Virus record (IMG/VR): IMGVR_UViG_3300033074_002003
DNA length: 64,000 nt
From: a virus
Strand: one strand, 5' to 3'
Positions 25,477 through 39,278 of this stretch are shown here, in pieces (the stretch's first letter is position 1; each line of letters starts with the position of its first letter). The translations under genes were made by a program, and so were the position numbers. Below the pieces are notes generated by a model. The model had not been told where the DNA came from and did no database searches. It worked only from the letters and a program-made list of their open reading frames with translations.

Positions 25477-25890
25477 ATGCCCCTGTACCCTCTGCTGGCT
25501 GTATACGTCCTGATGTGTTTCGTCGTCTTCGGCAAGGCCGTGTATGAGACGTTTGTACCGTGGCGATACGGATTCAAATTGGACGAGAGCACTCCTTATG
25601 ATGGTGTATTGGCGCTCGCGTGCGTCATTGTTTACGCCGCGATCTGGCCAGTTACGCTTGTGGTGCTCATCGCAAACGGTGCTGCGAACTGGTGGGCTCG
25701 ACACAAGCGATCTGATGATAGGTTGACAGAACTGGAGCGCTTTCGTATCGAGGCGCGGGTGGCGTCGGGCTGCTCGCTTGGTGCCACTGACGGAGAGGTG
25801 CTCGTGGCGATCAAGCGTGCTATGTGTGGCGAGGACGCAAGAGCGATCGCTGAAATTAGGAAGGCCATGAGCAAGGAGAACATGTCGTGA
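25477..25890 (+). CDS. Membrane protein (3 predicted TM segments)
   Basis: MPLYPLLAVYVLMCFVVFG..., VLALACVIVYAAIWPVTLVVLIA. Confidence 0.4.
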   Translation: MPLYPLLAVYVLMCFVVFGKAVYETFVPWRYGFKLDESTPYDGVLALACVIVYAAIWPVTLVVLIANGAANWWARHKRSDDRLTELERFRIEARVASGCSLGATDGEVLVAIKRAMCGEDARAIAEIRKAMSKENMS

Positions 25891-26672
25891 AGCTGCGCTG
25901 CGTTTCTGACCTTCACCACGAGTTCTACGGAGTTCACCAGAGTGCCTGGGAGGCTACTGCACAGGCTGTCGCGGGGGACGATGAGTACGACGTGCTCGTT
26001 GTAGCGGGCGATGTCTCAAATTTCTCCGGGATGCGTGCCGCGCTCACGTCACTGTGCCGCGCTGCCGTGGGTCGCCCTGTCGTCTACGTCCCCGGGAACC
26101 ACGAGGCGTATGGCTCATCCATTCCCGCGATGTACGAGCGCGCTCACATGATCGCGGCGGAGTCATGGGCACAAAACCTTCACGTGCTCACAAGCAAGGC
26201 TGTCAACATTGTAGCCGGCGGCGAGGCTCGCAAGTTTGTCGGGACCACGTTGTGGTACAAGCTCACACCCGTGCTCGAGGTGCTTGGCAAGCGCGGGATG
26301 GGCGATTTCGCGTACATCACCTCAGAGACGAGCGTAGGGTGGGACATTGACAACGAGGCTCGCGAGGCAGAGAAGTTCCTGCGAGCAGAGGTCGAGCCTG
26401 GGTGCGTTGTTGTGACACACTTCATGCCACACCCGCGGTCGATCCACCCGATGTACGCGAACTCGGGCATCAATGGATTCTTCCTGCACGATGTTAGTGA
26501 CATTGTCGAGCGCGGTGGTGCCGCTGCGTGGATTCACGGTCACACTCACTCGTCTTTCGACTACGTTGTCGGATCTACGCGCGTCGTCTGTAACCCACAC
26601 GGGTACATTACGGCGCCGATGCCGAATGAACCCAACAGTGATTTCGAGGACAGGTTGACTGTCGTCGTGTGA
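25887..26672 (+). CDS. Calcineurin-like metallophosphoesterase (candidate polynucleotide 2',3'-phosphatase)
   Basis: SDLHHEF (DxH), VVAGDVSN (GD), PGNHE (GNHE), GHTH motifs. GTG start overlaps the upstream stop. Confidence 0.75.
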   Translation: MKLRCVSDLHHEFYGVHQSAWEATAQAVAGDDEYDVLVVAGDVSNFSGMRAALTSLCRAAVGRPVVYVPGNHEAYGSSIPAMYERAHMIAAESWAQNLHVLTSKAVNIVAGGEARKFVGTTLWYKLTPVLEVLGKRGMGDFAYITSETSVGWDIDNEAREAEKFLRAEVEPGCVVVTHFMPHPRSIHPMYANSGINGFFLHDVSDIVERGGAAAWIHGHTHSSFDYVVGSTRVVCNPHGYITAPMPNEPNSDFEDRLTVVV

Positions 26673-26715
26673 TACGTGTCTGTAGTGTCATCTGTGTGGT
26701 ATAACGGTGGAACAA

Positions 26716-36821: not shown

Positions 36822-37715
36822 TCGGAAAAGTTGACGCTACGAGAGCTGCTGGGTACTGACAGCGCGAATCTGGTGACGGAGCGCGAGTTTCGCGACCAGA
36901 ATTTTTGCAGGTATGAGAGACTGGTGATCCGCTCTCTGCGTCGCGCGGGCATCATCGGAAACATTCGCAGTGCGAACTGCAACGACTCGAACGCCCCTGA
37001 CGCTGACATGGTGGTGGGCGACGAAATCTACTACGTGGAGGTGAAAGCCTCTGATCGCGCTCGAATGGGATCCGCGTCAGTCGGATATTCCTATCTCGAG
37101 CGCGAGTTCTATTCGACTGGTCTCAACGTCGAGCTGAGCGAACTCGTTGTGTCGCTACTTGAGACTTCGTCGTCGACGCTCAAGAAATCGCTAGATCGCC
37201 TCGTGCGAGCGGTCGCGGTCGGATCGCCTGACAGGAAGCGCGTCCTCAGGGGCTTTCCGATGAGCGGATTCACCGCATCAGCGTGGTCAGGCGCGCGCGA
37301 AGCGGGACTGTTGCAACCGCTTAACTCGCAGTTCGAGGGAAGCATAGACATCATCGGTTCGCACTACGCCCGCAAAGGCGTTTCATACATCCAGGTGGGC
37401 GGCCGCGGCCTGTTCTACCTCTCTTCGAACCCGGCGAACCTACCCGTTCCGAAACTAGAGGGTACAGTCGTCCTAGAGGTTACGGTGAGCAAAGCCGGCG
37501 ATATTCCGGGTCGCGAGACGTCTCGTGCGGCGATCCGCGTGCACCCGCGCATCGAAATTTCGGGAGAATCTCCCTACACGCTCGACGATCCCGCGAGCGT
37601 CATTGCGCTCATTGCCGCGACGGAAAATGTAAATCCGCCGCAGGGGGCTGTACAATCCCCCAATGGGATCTCGAATTCTCGCGCAGGGCGTCCTGGAGCA
37701 ACTGTCAGTTCGTGA
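36819..37715 (+). CDS. PD-(D/E)XK nuclease-fold protein (tentative)
   Basis: DADMVVGDEIYYVEVKA (D...E-V-K). Confidence 0.35.
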   Translation: MSEKLTLRELLGTDSANLVTEREFRDQNFCRYERLVIRSLRRAGIIGNIRSANCNDSNAPDADMVVGDEIYYVEVKASDRARMGSASVGYSYLEREFYSTGLNVELSELVVSLLETSSSTLKKSLDRLVRAVAVGSPDRKRVLRGFPMSGFTASAWSGAREAGLLQPLNSQFEGSIDIIGSHYARKGVSYIQVGGRGLFYLSSNPANLPVPKLEGTVVLEVTVSKAGDIPGRETSRAAIRVHPRIEISGESPYTLDDPASVIALIAATENVNPPQGAVQSPNGISNSRAGRPGATVSS

Positions 37716-38883
37716 GCTGGAGGAGAGGTGGGGCGTAAACATCAGCGTCTCTGGCTCGCGCCCACGTAAGTTCAGCATCAACTACGACCAGATCGAGAGC
37801 AAGCCGAGCCCGCTGGTGAACGAGTGCCGTGGAGTGGTCCTCCTCGCGAACAGGGAGTTGCCACGCCTCAAGTCAGAGCTCGCAGACGTGATCATCGGTG
37901 AGACGCAGTTGCTCGCTCGCCCGTTCGATCGCTTCTTCAATCACGGCGATCCGAACGCCGCGAACATCGACTGGGACGATCCTGGGCTCACTGTCGTCGA
38001 GAAGCTCGATGGCACTCTCGCGATCGTGTACTACGACGACCCTGCGAGCGAGTGGTGCATGGCGACGCGCTCTGTCCCAGACGCCGACCTCCCGTTCGAC
38101 GGTGGCAGCATGACGTTCAGGAAGCTGTTCGACCGAGCGCTCGTCGAGACGACCGGTAGCGACTCGCTTGGGTTCTTCATGGACACGACCGACCGCGACC
38201 TCACATTTTGCTTCGAGCTCACGACTCCCCTCAACAGGATCGTCGTAGAGTACAATACGTACGACCTCACTTGGATCGGGACGCGCCACCGCAAGACGGG
38301 TAAGGAGCTGACCTATCGCGATACCTTGAAGCGCGTTGCGCCCCACACCGCGCGGCACATGCCCCCGGCCGCGAAGACGTGGGCAGTTGGGTCGCTCGAG
38401 GAGATCACTGTCGCACTCGAGGCGTCTAGCCCAACAGAGCTCGAGGGCGTCGTTGTCGTCGACAGCGAGTTCCAAAGGCTGAAGATCAAGTCGCTTGCGT
38501 GGCTCTCGGCCAACAAGGCGAAGTCGTCGTGCTCGTCACCGCGCGCGATCCTGACACTGATCCTGCAGGAGAAGATCGACGACGTGCTTCCCCTGCTGCC
38601 GCCCGACATTTGCCTCACCGTTGACCGCATGAAGGCCTCACTCACCGAGCTGTATCACACCACCGACAGGCGGTACAGTGAGTTTCTAGCGGCCTCTGGG
38701 GGCAACAGAAAGGCCTTCGCACTGTCCGTGCAGGCTGACCCAAGCGTGTGGCCCGCGGCAATGTTTGGGCTGTACGTGAAGCCGCAGTCGATGCGCGAGT
38801 GGGTTGCCTCGCGCGGCGGCGAAGGCGGGTGGCCCGATTCGTTCCTCGACAACATCCTGAAGGCGATCGGTGAGAAGCAGTGA
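37663..38883 (+). CDS. ATP-dependent RNA ligase (Rnl-like nucleotidyltransferase)
   Basis: Motif I KLDGT, motif IV EGVVVVD, motif V LKIKS. The true start may lie downstream of 37663, because this frame overlaps the previous gene. Confidence 0.55.
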   Translation: MGSRILAQGVLEQLSVRELEERWGVNISVSGSRPRKFSINYDQIESKPSPLVNECRGVVLLANRELPRLKSELADVIIGETQLLARPFDRFFNHGDPNAANIDWDDPGLTVVEKLDGTLAIVYYDDPASEWCMATRSVPDADLPFDGGSMTFRKLFDRALVETTGSDSLGFFMDTTDRDLTFCFELTTPLNRIVVEYNTYDLTWIGTRHRKTGKELTYRDTLKRVAPHTARHMPPAAKTWAVGSLEEITVALEASSPTELEGVVVVDSEFQRLKIKSLAWLSANKAKSSCSSPRAILTLILQEKIDDVLPLLPPDICLTVDRMKASLTELYHTTDRRYSEFLAASGGNRKAFALSVQADPSVWPAAMFGLYVKPQSMREWVASRGGEGGWPDSFLDNILKAIGEKQ

Positions 38884-39278
38884 GTCACTCTCCATTTCCG
38901 AAGTACGTGAAGCATGCTATCGATCTCGTTAGCGAGCACACGTATGAGTCGCACCTCGAGTATAACCTCGCAGCCGTAATTGTCGCGGGCGGAAGTGTGC
39001 TGTCTGTCGGGTACAACTCATCGAAGGTGACGAGCTTCATAAGAGCGTTCGGACTCGAGCGCAATCACATGCACGCCGAGTGCGACGCTATCCTCAGTGC
39101 GCGAAACAAGATCGATCTCAACGGATCGAAACTCTATGTCGCGAGGCTGACCCTCAAGCGAGGTGTCGTCGGGAACGCGAAGCCGTGTGACATGTGCATG
39201 CACGCGGCATTCATGTACGGGATCAAGAGGATCTACTACACGGTGAACGAGAACACGTACGCTGTTATCAGACCGTGA
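38880..39278 (+). CDS. CDA-fold zinc deaminase (TadA / dCMP deaminase-like)
   Basis: HAECDAI (HAE) and PCDMCMHAAFMYGIKRIYY (PCxxC) zinc motifs. N-terminal helix resembles TadA. Confidence 0.65.
   Translation: MSHSPFPKYVKHAIDLVSEHTYESHLEYNLAAVIVAGGSVLSVGYNSSKVTSFIRAFGLERNHMHAECDAILSARNKIDLNGSKLYVARLTLKRGVVGNAKPCDMCMHAAFMYGIKRIYYTVNENTYAVIRP

What the first reader, a model, noticed from the sequence alone, without database searches (positions are those of the whole stretch)
25887..39278. RNA-repair / tRNA-maintenance toolkit dispersed through the accessory region
Between 25.9 and 39.3 kb the phage encodes a calcineurin-like metallophosphoesterase (the fold used by bacterial Pnkp-type polynucleotide phosphatases), a CX5R Cys-phosphatase, a class II CCA-adding enzyme, an Rnl-type ATP-dependent RNA ligase (KLDG / EGVVV / KIK motifs) and a TadA-like CDA-fold deaminase. 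At 62-63.5 kb it adds a PTH2-type peptidyl-tRNA hydrolase, a tRNA-binding OB-fold protein, an HD/Mesh1-like alarmone hydrolase and a tRNA gene whose CCA must be added post-transcriptionally. Taken together this looks like a counter-defence package against tRNA-targeting immunity: anticodon nucleases of the PrrC/RloC/VapC type, CCA trimming, translation-arrest toxins that accumulate peptidyl-tRNA, and alarmone signalling. It goes beyond the T4 Pnkp plus Rnl1 pair.
Basis: partly seen in the sequence, partly recalled or inferred. Interest (0 to 1): 0.7.

Follow-up and report, generated by a model that had tools for sequence, protein, structure and literature searches.

The report
Jumbo-phage tRNA upkeep genes, partly over-read
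A 306-kb phage carries real tRNA-maintenance enzymes (an RNA ligase, a CCA-adding enzyme, and a peptidyl-tRNA hydrolase / tRNA-binding / alarmone-hydrolase / tRNA operon), a kit already described for jumbo phages, but three of the proposed members are something else or unproven and the kinase that T4-style repair needs is missing.

Summary
The genes are real and lie at the stated coordinates. The window is 64 kb of a 305,889-bp myovirus-like metagenomic contig.

Confirmed:
- T4 Rnl1-type RNA ligase, with all catalytic motifs.
- Class II CCA-adding enzyme, above the NCBIfam equivalog cut-off.
- HCX5R cysteine phosphatase of the dual-specificity (DSP) family.
- PTH2, a tRNA-binding OB-fold protein and a Mesh1-like small alarmone hydrolase (SAH).
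- A tRNA with no encoded CCA.

Corrected:
- The deaminase matches dCMP deaminases about 10^5-fold better than TadA.
- The unknown gene overlapping the ligase start is an HhaI/Hjc-like DNA endonuclease, not a healing enzyme.

No P-loop kinase or Pnkp homologue occurs in the window or in 10 kb beyond its 3' end (74 kb in all). Other phages place Pnkp beside Rnl1 or beside the CCA enzyme. The MPE, CX5R and CCA families do not co-occur elsewhere, so this arrangement is particular to this phage.

The counter-defence reading is plausible for the ligase, the CCA enzyme and the PTH2–tRNA-binding–SAH–tRNA operon. Iyer et al. 2021 already published the same kit for jumbo phages. This is a new member of a known kind, of modest interest.

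The parts
25887..26672 (+). Calcineurin-like metallophosphoesterase, PptH-like ('Icc-related') phosphodiesterase. Its start overlaps the upstream 142-aa ORF by 4 nt.
26707..27462 (+). Free-standing HNH endonuclease inserted between the MPE and the CX5R gene.
   Evidence: Pfam HNH and HNH_5 at 3e-9, plus many PHROG HNH families.
27668..28129 (+). DSP-like cysteine phosphatase (HCDAGHSRS; Asp55 is the likely general acid). Chained by 4-nt overlaps to a 70-aa ORF upstream and, through a 42-aa ORF, to the CCA gene downstream.
   Evidence: 663 relatives found. 61 of 71 hit Pfam DSPc. Profile against PDB matches DUSP16 and DUSP10 at 3e-6 to 5e-5. Gene chaining comes from the calls.
28242..29543 (+). 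Class II CCA-adding tRNA nucleotidyltransferase (Bacillus type, no HD domain). Public gene calls start it at 28251.
   Evidence: PolyA_pol 7.7e-36, PolyA_pol_RNAbd, tRNA_NucTran2_2. NCBIfam NF009814 scores 294.8 against a cut-off of 290.
29850..30620 (+). CobB-like Sir2 NAD-dependent deacylase.
   Evidence: Pfam SIR2 8.5e-42. NCBIfam NF001753 scores 240.3 against 243.
30690..33281 (+). Major-vault-protein-like protein (vault repeat, MVP shoulder/SPFH, coiled coil). It lies in the same block; its role is unknown.
   Evidence: MVP_shoulder 3e-27, Vault_3 1.8e-9, Band_7 2.8e-6.
35440..36582 (+). VWA-domain protein. Role unknown.
   Evidence: Pfam VWA 2.2e-5. The C-terminal part matches phrog_26613.
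36819..37715 (+). PD-(D/E)xK endonuclease, HhaI/Hjc-like. It overlaps the rnl1 start by 53 nt and is probably a free-standing DNA nuclease.
37663..38883 (+). T4 Rnl1-family ATP-dependent RNA ligase.
   Evidence: Pfam RNA_lig_T4_1 1e-12. PDB 2c5u and 5tt6 at 7e-13, with catalytic residues aligned. phrog_562 1.3e-41. TIGR02308 9e-21.
38880..39278 (+). Small dCMP-deaminase-like CDA-fold deaminase. Its start overlaps the rnl1 stop codon by 4 nt.
   Evidence: dCMP_cyt_deam_1 1.5e-12. Profile against PDB ranks dCMP deaminases far above TadA. Phage relatives are annotated dCMP/CMP deaminase.
63086..63538 (-). PTH2-type peptidyl-tRNA hydrolase with a Lys/Gly-rich N-terminal extension. First gene of the second operon.
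   Evidence: Pfam PTH2 1.3e-6, 29.1 bits against 23. Archaeal Pth2 2zv3 aligns end to end at E 0.13. Orthologues of 66-67% identity occur in L230 and L231.
62730..63125 (-). Stand-alone tRNA-binding OB-fold protein (MetRS C-terminal / CsaA type). The public gene call (119 aa) overlaps the PTH2 stop by 4 nt.
   Evidence: Pfam tRNA_bind 3e-22. TIGR00399 scores 111.9 bits.
62101..62730 (-). Small alarmone hydrolase (Mesh1/SAH, RelA-SpoT hydrolase domain). It abuts the tRNA-binding gene.
   Evidence: HD_4 9e-11. PDB Drosophila Mesh1 2.2e-8, plus human MESH1 and bacterial SAHs. The HD...ED motif is conserved.
62038..62110 (-). tRNA gene with an 8-nt anticodon loop (GGUUAUGU; the likeliest anticodon is UAU) and no encoded CCA. 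Its 5' end overlaps the stop codon of the hydrolase gene.
   Evidence: ARAGORN and Rfam, 46.7 bits. Sequence. Fold.

Best explanation
The window belongs to a roughly 306-kb jumbo myovirus. Two gene groups in its accessory regions most likely keep the tRNA pool usable during infection.

Group 1 lies at 25.4-39.3 kb. It is one co-directional, overlap-chained block that includes a CCA-adding enzyme and a T4 Rnl1-type RNA ligase.

Group 2 lies at 62.0-63.5 kb on the minus strand. It is an operon of PTH2, a stand-alone tRNA-binding domain, a Mesh1-like small alarmone hydrolase and a tRNA.

Inferred mechanism:
- Rnl1 reseals tRNA nicks that already carry 5'-phosphate and 3'-OH ends. These are the expected products of metal-dependent tRNases (PIN, Toprim, RuvC types).
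- The CCA enzyme rebuilds trimmed 3' ends and matures the CCA-less phage tRNA.
- The SAH, possibly guided by the tRNA-binding protein, strips 3'-pyrophosphate added by toxSAS/CapRel-type toxins and hydrolyses alarmones.
- PTH2 recycles peptidyl-tRNA from stalled ribosomes.

Shown: family membership, intact catalytic motifs and operon packing.

Inferred: every substrate and the counter-defence purpose.

The MPE (PptH-like), the dCMP-deaminase-like enzyme, the HhaI-like and HNH nucleases, Sir2, the MVP-like protein and the VWA protein are neighbours. They have other or unknown jobs and are not demonstrable repair components. The DSP-like phosphatase, chained by overlapping ORFs to the CCA gene, is the only plausible end-healing candidate. 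The T4-type healing step (5' kinase) is absent from the 74 kb examined.
For: - Rnl1: motifs I, III, IV and V align with T4 K99, E159, E227 and K240/K242. Pfam, PHROG and NCBIfam hits agree.
- CCA enzyme: above the equivalog cut-off.
- SAH: Mesh1 2.2e-8 with HD...ED conserved. tRNA_bind: 3e-22. PTH2: above the Pfam threshold.
- Packing: the PTH2, tRNA_bind and SAH genes overlap or abut, and the tRNA overlaps the SAH stop codon. In group 1, 4-nt overlaps chain the genes (gene calls).
- Other phages: CCA genes sit beside RlaP in 28 of 80 loci, beside a small MPE in 15 of 80, and beside Pnkp in 7 of 80. Relatives of the DSP-like phosphatase abut Rnl2-type ligases in several lineages.
- Literature: the jumbo-phage RNA-repair kit (Rnl1, CCA enzyme, PTH2, tRNAs, calcineurin/HD phosphatases) is described in PMC7824862 section 3.4.9. 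SAH/MESH1 restore toxSAS-pyrophosphorylated tRNA (10.1101/2021.04.30.441581).
Against: - No Walker-A motif in any of the six frames of the window, and no Pnkp homologue in the window or the 10-kb extension. No RlaP either.
- The two gene groups are 23 kb apart, separated by the tail and baseplate module.
- The window's MPE, CX5R and CCA families do not co-occur elsewhere. Rates are 1 of 80, 1 of 51 and 2-3 of 80.
- In the closest relatives that carry the PTH2 gene (L230, L231), the tRNA-binding and SAH genes are absent.
- T4 Rnl1 also acts as a tail-fibre attachment factor, and this rnl1 ends 400 nt from the tail-fibre genes.
- There is no experimental data and the host is unknown.
Confidence: 0.55

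Rival explanations
1. There is no coordinated toolkit. The block is an ordinary jumbo-phage collection of independently acting auxiliary genes. The CCA enzyme merely matures phage tRNAs that lack CCA. Rnl1 acts mainly as a tail-fibre attachment factor or general RNA ligase. The deaminase feeds dTTP synthesis. The MPE removes phosphopantetheine from carrier proteins or hydrolyses other phosphodiesters. The DSP-like enzyme dephosphorylates host proteins. The nucleases are selfish homing elements.
For: - The window's MPE, CX5R and CCA families are almost never neighbours in other phages.
- The MPE is PptH-like and the deaminase is dCMP-deaminase-like.
- The HNH and HhaI-like nucleases interrupt the block.
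- rnl1 is adjacent to the tail-fibre genes. phrog_562 is annotated 'RNA ligase and tail fiber protein attachment catalyst'.
- The tRNA lacks CCA.
- No kinase is present.
Against: - In other phages, CCA enzymes and Rnl1 recur next to dedicated RNA-repair genes such as RlaP and Pnkp.
- The PTH2 / tRNA-binding / SAH / tRNA operon is too thematically coherent to be coincidence.
- Hosts already have a CCA enzyme for tRNA maturation.
Confidence: 0.3
2. The block is centred on NAD+/ADP-ribose and nucleotide-signal metabolism rather than RNA repair. Sir2, together with the NAMPT and NMNAT-Nudix genes just beyond the window, manages NAD+. The MPE and the DSP-like phosphatase degrade cyclic-nucleotide or ADP-ribose-derived immune signals or their phosphorylated by-products.
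For: - A CobB-like Sir2 sits between the CCA and MVP genes.
- NAMPT and NMNAT-Nudix lie 1-5 kb beyond PTH2.
- Relatives of the DSP-like phosphatase neighbour NADAR domains in about 9 of 80 loci.
- Structural neighbours of the MPE include the cyclic-nucleotide phosphodiesterases Rv0805 and Lmo2642.
- PMC7824862 section 3.4.8 describes such systems in jumbo phages.
Against: - No Macro, NADAR, ART or Nudix gene lies inside the 25.9-39.3 kb block.
- This reading does not explain the ligase, the CCA enzyme or PTH2.
Confidence: 0.12

Closest known systems
Phage T4 Pnkp + Rnl1 tRNA healing-and-sealing pathway (counter to the PrrC anticodon nuclease)
   Same: An Rnl1-family ligase with the same catalytic residues. 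It is encoded by a large myovirus with a T4-type baseplate protein (gp25).
   Different: No Pnkp (P-loop kinase plus HAD phosphatase) in the 74 kb examined. The ligase is flanked instead by an HhaI-like nuclease and a dCMP-deaminase-like gene. Identity to T4 Rnl1 is only about 26%.
Jumbo-phage RNA-repair / ribosome-rescue kit described by Iyer, Anantharaman, Krishnan, Burroughs & Aravind 2021 (PMC7824862, section 3.4.9)
   Same: The same inventory: Rnl1, CCA-adding enzyme, PTH2, tRNA, calcineurin-like and HD phosphoesterases. It also has NAD+ salvage (NAPRTase-family enzyme plus NMNAT-Nudix) and SIR2.
   Different: This phage lacks PNK, RlaP, 2H, RtcB and Thg1 in the part seen. It adds a stand-alone tRNA-binding domain and an SAH in one operon with PTH2, and a DSP-like phosphatase chained by overlapping ORFs to the CCA gene.
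toxSAS (FaRel2/CapRel) versus SAH/MESH1 antagonism on tRNA CCA ends (Kurata et al., 10.1101/2021.04.30.441581)
   Same: A Mesh1-like hydrolase with the intact HD...ED motif, placed next to tRNA-handling genes.
   Different: Activity on pyrophosphorylated tRNA is untested for this protein. It is phage-encoded and not paired with a toxSAS.
Mycobacterium tuberculosis phosphopantetheinyl hydrolase PptH (PDB 6unc)
   Different: Only 22% identity. The substrate is untested. The phage context is unlike the mycobacterial one.
Phage and bacterial dCMP deaminases (T4 Cd 1vq2, cyanophage S-TIM5 4p9c, S. mutans 2hvv)
   Same: HAE and PCxxC zinc motifs. These are the best profile matches, at 1.6e-12 to 1.8e-10.
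   Different: Only 132 aa. It reaches no NCBIfam dCMP-deaminase model. It overlaps the stop codon of an RNA ligase gene by 4 nt. Relatives in actinophages lie near RNA-repair genes.

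Membership tests
T4-type tRNA repair pathway (Pnkp + Rnl1) | Rnl1-family ligase with nucleotidyltransferase motifs I (KxDG), III, IV (EGxx) and V (KxK) | tested here: met
   KLDG, FEL, EGVVV and KIK align with T4 K99, E159, E227 and K240/K242. 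Pfam scores 48.9 bits against a threshold of 28.3.
T4-type tRNA repair pathway (Pnkp + Rnl1) | 5'-OH polynucleotide kinase (P-loop GxxxxGK[ST]) | tested here: not met
   No Walker-A motif in six frames of 64 kb. tblastn with two phage Pnkp sequences finds nothing in the window or the 10-kb extension. The remaining ~230 kb of the contig could not be fetched.
T4-type tRNA repair pathway (Pnkp + Rnl1) | 3'-phosphatase / 2',3'-cyclic phosphodiesterase partnered with the ligase | tested here: inconclusive
   No HAD-type Pnkp phosphatase. An MPE and a DSP-like phosphatase lie about 10-12 kb upstream of the ligase. The MPE is PptH-like and the DSP substrate is unknown.
T4-type tRNA repair pathway (Pnkp + Rnl1) | Genetic requirement on hosts carrying an anticodon nuclease | not testable with these tools
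   Uncultured phage, unknown host.
Rnl1 (T4 RnlA) equivalog | Score above the NCBIfam TIGR02308 equivalog cut-off | tested here: not met
   74.4 bits against a cut-off of 242.25. It is a divergent family member, not an equivalog.
Class II CCA-adding enzyme | Pol-beta head domain plus RNA-binding neck and body domains, and an equivalog-level score | tested here: met
   PF01743, PF12627 and PF13735 all hit. NF009814 scores 294.8 against 290. GGCVRD...DWD, RRD and EDGLR motifs are visible in the translation.
Pnkp/lambda-phosphatase-type MPE (bacterial Pnkp phosphatase module) | PPP-type motifs GDxHG / GDxxDRG / GNHE, and closest structural similarity to lambda phosphatase or Pnkp | tested here: not met
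Dual-specificity / PTP cysteine phosphatases | HCX5R(S/T) P-loop with an upstream general-acid Asp, and profile similarity to DSPs | tested here: met
   HCDAGHSRS is present. C90, G93, R96 and S97 are invariant and D55 is at least 90% conserved. 61 of 71 relatives hit PF00782. PDB profile hits DUSP16 and DUSP10. The protein itself is below Pfam thresholds.
TadA (tRNA adenosine-34 deaminase) | Best similarity to TadA/ADAT2 rather than other CDA-fold clades | tested here: not met
   No TadA model in NCBIfam at E below 0.01. In the profile search, dCMP deaminases score 1.6e-12 to 2e-10 and TadA scores 1.5e-7 to 2.4e-4.
dCMP deaminase | HAE / PCxxC zinc site and best similarity to dCMP deaminases | tested here: met
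   Substrate specificity itself is not tested, and no NCBIfam dCMP-deaminase model is reached.
PTH2 peptidyl-tRNA hydrolase | Pfam PF01981 above the gathering score, with full-length alignment to archaeal Pth2 | tested here: met
   29.1 bits against 23. 2zv3 aligns residues 3-114 of 115. NCBIfam equivalog cut-offs are not reached: 23 bits against 126.
Small alarmone hydrolase (Mesh1/SAH) | RelA-SpoT hydrolase domain with the HD...ED motif, single-domain architecture | tested here: met
   HD_4 scores 42.2 bits against 27.2. Mesh1, MESH1 and SAH structures score 2e-8 to 1e-4. LLHDSLEDT aligns with LLHDVVEDT. The protein is 209 aa and single-domain.
NAD+ salvage pair (NAMPT + NMNAT-Nudix; KVP40-type) | Both enzymes encoded together | tested here: met
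   Precomputed Pfam on the source contig gives NAMPT_N + NAPRTase (460 aa) and CTP_transf_like + NUDIX (343 aa), 1-5 kb beyond the window end. These lie outside the finding's coordinates.

The most novel reading that the evidence does not exclude
The overlap-chained trio of DSP-like Cys phosphatase, 42-aa ORF and CCA-adding enzyme could be a new two-step tRNA 3'-end repair module. The phosphatase would clear a 3'-phosphate, 2',3'-cyclic phosphate or pyrophosphate left by tail-trimming or tail-modifying defences. This is the job done by the HD domain of E. coli Cca. The CCA enzyme would then rebuild the end. In parallel, the kinase-less Rnl1 would be specialised for nicks made by metal-dependent tRNases, which leave 5'-P and 3'-OH ends and need no healing. 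The same DSP-like family abuts Rnl2-type ligases in other phages, which hints at a so far unrecognised RNA end-healing phosphatase family.
Probability: 0.15. Interest if true: 0.6.

Novelty: new member of a known kind. Interest (0 to 1): 0.3.

Why it matters
tRNA-targeting immunity is a fast-growing field. Known examples include PrrC/RloC, VapC, PARIS, retron-Septu, Cas12a3 and CapRel. Phage countermeasures beyond T4 Pnkp/Rnl1 and decoy tRNAs are mostly predictions.

This phage offers three compact candidates to test:
- a kinase-less Rnl1
- a CCA enzyme chained by overlapping ORFs to a DSP-like phosphatase
- a PTH2 / tRNA-binding / SAH / tRNA operon next to NAD+ salvage genes

As it stands, it is one more example of a kit already catalogued for jumbo phages. 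Part of the proposed kit (MPE, deaminase) was mis-assigned, so its value is as a lead for biochemistry rather than as a discovery.

Tried and rejected
- A Pnkp in the window. Rejected: Walker-A regex and tblastn with two phage Pnkp sequences were negative. RlaP was also absent.
- A conserved MPE-CX5R-CCA-Rnl1 synteny. Rejected: tblastn and HMM scans of 215 IMG/VR loci show almost no co-occurrence.
- The small MPE that often neighbours CCA, CX5R and Rnl2 genes in other phages being the same family as the window's MPE. Rejected: no significant similarity.
- A CX5R-motif 153-aa protein found near the window-type MPE in 23 of 51 loci being a relative of the window's CX5R. Not supported by the HMM or by Pfam.
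- Megablast of the region against phage genomes: no match.
- Two encoding-contig look-ups failed because my chosen start codons differed from the public gene calls.
- Promoter and terminator scans were at chance level.
- TAG recoding, suggested by a CUA suppressor tRNA in relative L231. Not seen here: stop-codon usage is normal and the ORFs are intact.
- IMG/VR searches with the SAH and the deaminase found no relatives.
- The rest of the 306-kb contig could not be retrieved with the allowed look-ups.

Full report
CONTEXT

The window has 52-69% G+C. It carries a T4-type baseplate gene (gp25 domain, 52987-53466) and long LamG-containing tail-fibre genes at 39.3-49.6 kb on the minus strand.

Exact-protein look-ups place it on a 305,889-bp metagenomic contig (ENA ERZ4198739 NODE_15) and on near-identical contigs from other samples (99.8% identity). 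It is therefore part of a jumbo phage.

It has no nucleotide-level relative among 50,697 phage records. Its closest structural relative is the 484-kb uncultured phage LR756508.1 (baseplate protein 29% identical, Rnl1 28.6%).

Codon-position G+C shows one co-directional plus-strand gene block from 25.4 to 39.3 kb. It sits between a minus-strand block of small genes and the minus-strand tail module.

THE OBSERVATION

Profile searches confirm:
- the metallophosphoesterase (MPE)
- the class II CCA-adding enzyme, which passes NCBI's equivalog cut-off (294.8 against 290)
- the Rnl1-type ligase
- a CDA-fold deaminase
- PTH2
- a tRNA-binding OB-fold
- an HD_4 (RelA/SpoT hydrolase) protein

The ligase aligns with T4 Rnl1 over about 310 residues. 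The lysine nucleophile (KLDG against KEDG) and motifs III, IV and V are conserved. It is an RNA ligase, not a DNA ligase.

The HD protein's best solved relatives are Drosophila and human Mesh1 and bacterial small alarmone hydrolases (SAHs). The HD...ED signature is intact.

The CX5R protein has no Pfam hit of its own. An exhaustive search found 663 relatives, mostly stand-alone proteins of about 130-190 aa. Of 71 aligned, 61 hit the dual-specificity phosphatase (DSP) domain. Cys90, Arg96, Ser97 and Gly93 are invariant, and Asp55 is nearly so. It is a bona fide DSP-like cysteine phosphatase with unknown substrate.

The tRNA (62038-62110, minus strand) is real (Rfam 46.7 bits) and lacks an encoded CCA. 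Its anticodon loop has eight nucleotides, GGUUAUGU.

TWO LABELS DO NOT HOLD

First, the MPE.
- A family profile also hits 6unc first, at 1.3e-7.
- The Pnkp comparison is therefore true only at superfamily level.

Second, the deaminase.
- A six-sequence profile scores dCMP deaminases (S. mutans, cyanophage S-TIM5, T4, human) at 1.6e-12 to 2e-10.
- The best TadA scores 1.5e-7 and E. coli TadA 2.4e-4.
- All annotated phage relatives are called dCMP/CMP deaminase.

The same block also encodes:
- an HNH endonuclease, between the MPE and the phosphatase
- a CobB-like Sir2
- an 863-aa major-vault-protein-like protein
- a VWA protein

A homologue follows Rnl1 directly in two IMG/VR contigs (L003, L004) but sits elsewhere in three other genomes. 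That pattern fits a mobile, free-standing endonuclease.

IS IT A REPAIR PATHWAY?

T4-style repair of anticodon-nuclease damage needs a 5'-OH kinase.
- No GxxxxGK[ST] motif occurs in any frame of the window, and relaxed patterns give only noise.
- Pnkp sequences from two phages find nothing in the window or in the 10 kb beyond its 3' end.
- Where the ligase's relatives are annotated, Pnkp is adjacent or close. In Pseudomonas phage SYP it is next to the ligase. In Paraglaciecola GD1 it is 4.6 kb away. In Streptomyces phage Daubenski it is 0.8 kb away.
- The remaining roughly 230 kb of the contig could not be fetched. Absence from the whole genome is therefore not shown.

I also asked whether the proposed partners travel together elsewhere. 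I scanned 215 IMG/VR loci, each spanning up to 10 kb on either side.
- Phage CCA-adding genes do sit in RNA-repair neighbourhoods: RlaP in 28 of 80 loci, a small MPE in 15 of 80, Pnkp directly upstream in 7 of 80, and Rnl1 in 4 of 80.
- The window's own MPE family and CX5R family almost never accompany CCA or each other: 1 of 80, 1 of 51 and 2-3 of 80 by HMM.
- The small MPE that recurs near CCA is a different family.
- The window-type MPE lies about 6 kb from an Rnl1-Pnkp pair in one clade (5-6 of 51 loci). More often it sits among nucleotide-metabolism genes such as ThyX and dATP/dGTP diphosphohydrolase.
- Relatives of the DSP-like phosphatase neighbour a small MPE (about 8 loci), NADAR (about 9) and Rnl2-type RNA ligases (6 loci in 4 lineages). 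They are directly adjacent to the ligase in L167 and L225. This is a modest hint of an RNA- or ADP-ribose-linked role.

Within the window, 4-nt overlaps chain the genes. The chains are 142-aa ORF/MPE, then HNH/70-aa ORF/CX5R/42-aa ORF/CCA, and p298/Rnl1/deaminase. Co-expression is therefore likely even though the arrangement is idiosyncratic.

THE SECOND CLUSTER

PTH2, the tRNA-binding protein and the SAH overlap or abut. The tRNA begins inside the SAH stop codon.

Published work shows that MESH1 and a bacterial SAH remove the pyrophosphate that toxSAS toxins (FaRel2/CapRel type) add to tRNA CCA ends. This gives the SAH a concrete tRNA-directed role beyond 'alarmone signalling'.

In lower-GC relatives that share PTH2 (66-67% identity), the PD-(D/E)xK gene and both glycosyltransferases, the tRNA-binding and SAH genes are absent. 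PTH2 is followed there by a CUA (amber-suppressor) tRNA. The operon composition is therefore lineage-specific.

Just beyond the window lie NAMPT and NMNAT-Nudix, which together provide NAD+ salvage.

COMPARISON WITH WHAT IS KNOWN

Iyer et al. 2021 (PMC7824862, sections 3.4.8-3.4.9) already describe the same picture for jumbo phages:
- Rnl1, Rnl2 and RtcB ligases
- PNK
- HAD, calcineurin-like and HD phosphatases
- RlaP
- CCA-adding enzyme
- PTH2
- tRNAs
- NAD+ salvage and SIR2

They read all of these as counter-measures to translation-targeting immunity. This phage is a new, somewhat incomplete member of that kind.

VERDICT

The core is real. It consists of Rnl1, the CCA enzyme, and the PTH2 / tRNA-binding / SAH / tRNA operon, and it most likely serves tRNA maintenance or counter-defence (confidence about 0.55). 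With no kinase in view, the ligase would be restricted to 5'-P/3'-OH nicks.

The MPE and the deaminase should be removed from the kit. The DSP-like phosphatase is an open candidate. The alternative is that these are independently acting auxiliary genes, and it remains substantial (about 0.3).

Interest is modest (0.3). The most novel reading not excluded is a DSP-phosphatase/CCA-enzyme 3'-end repair module (probability about 0.15).

Noticed in passing
window 62038-62110 (-); IMG/VR locus L231:6350-6424: The only tRNA in the window has an 8-nt anticodon loop (GGUUAUGU; the likeliest anticodon is UAU). A lower-GC relative has an amber-suppressor tRNA (anticodon CUA, encoded CCA) right after its PTH2 gene. 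ATA codons are three times more frequent in the late minus-strand genes (5.2 per 1000) than in the plus-strand genes (1.7 per 1000). Stop-codon usage in the window looks standard.
   Followed up: partly
window 30690-33281 (+) and 35440-36582 (+): An 863-aa major-vault-protein-like protein (vault repeat, MVP shoulder/SPFH, coiled coil) and a VWA-domain protein sit between the CCA/Sir2 genes and the ligase. Phage MVPs are mentioned only in a 2023 preprint (10.1101/2023.11.10.566534). Their function here is unknown.
   Followed up: partly
locus L009:4716-9087 (source contig, 1-5 kb beyond window position 64000) and window 29850-30620: NAMPT and a bifunctional NMNAT-Nudix (an NAD+ salvage pair), a radical-SAM protein, UDP-glucose dehydrogenase, an N6/N4 methyltransferase, an R2K ATP-grasp protein and UDP-galactopyranose mutase lie just past PTH2. 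A CobB-like Sir2 lies inside the finding's region.
   Followed up: partly
window 23315-24924 (-), 29600-29860, 33988-34498, 36483-36800 (+): About nine small paralogous ORFs (65-108 aa) share an N-proximal [R/H]-[V/I/F/L]-GDL-[V/I] motif. They are scattered among the accessory genes, and several lie directly before enzymes (Sir2, the HhaI-like nuclease). The four I scanned had no Pfam hit.
   Followed up: partly
window 36819-37715 (+); L003:11101-11856: An unannotated family of 53 HhaI/Hjc-like PD-(D/E)xK nucleases found on large phage contigs. In two IMG/VR contigs from related samples (identical match statistics) it lies directly beside Rnl1, as it does here. This suggests a free-standing homing-type endonuclease that targets this neighbourhood.
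   Followed up: yes
IMG/VR locus L003:5620-11856: A compact repair-like cluster in a 256-kb viral contig: HAD phosphatase (DxDxT), lambda-phosphatase-type MPE (GDIHGC / GDYVDRG / GNHE), a 343-aa unknown, a 228-aa minus-strand ORF of unknown function, Rnl1, then the HhaI-like nuclease. RlaP lies 8 kb downstream.
   Followed up: partly
IMG/VR loci L167, L181, L225, L170/L172/L173: Relatives of the DSP-like CX5R phosphatase lie directly next to or within about 3 kb of Rnl2-type RNA ligases (PF09414 plus the PHA02142 OB-fold). They often also have a small MPE and a NADAR protein nearby.
   Followed up: partly
loci L227 (Streptomyces phage Daubenski) and L233 (Rhodococcus phage Weasels2): Homologues of the small deaminase lie within about 4-6 kb of RNA ligase + polynucleotide kinase + a tRNA array in Daubenski, and of Thg1 + 2'-5' RNA ligase in Weasels2. 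This echoes its overlap with the rnl1 stop codon here, although its sequence looks like a dCMP deaminase.
   Followed up: partly
window 25887-26672 and 30690-33281: The only taxon names attached to the listed relatives of the MPE are Polyangiaceae and Myxococcaceae MAGs, and bacterial MVP homologues are reported from Myxococcales (10.1101/872010). Together with the high G+C, this weakly suggests a myxobacterial host.
   Followed up: no
window 24977-25414 (-): A DUF4031 protein (5.7e-19) with a Cys-rich C-terminal extension is encoded divergently just upstream of the accessory block. Its function is unknown.
   Followed up: no
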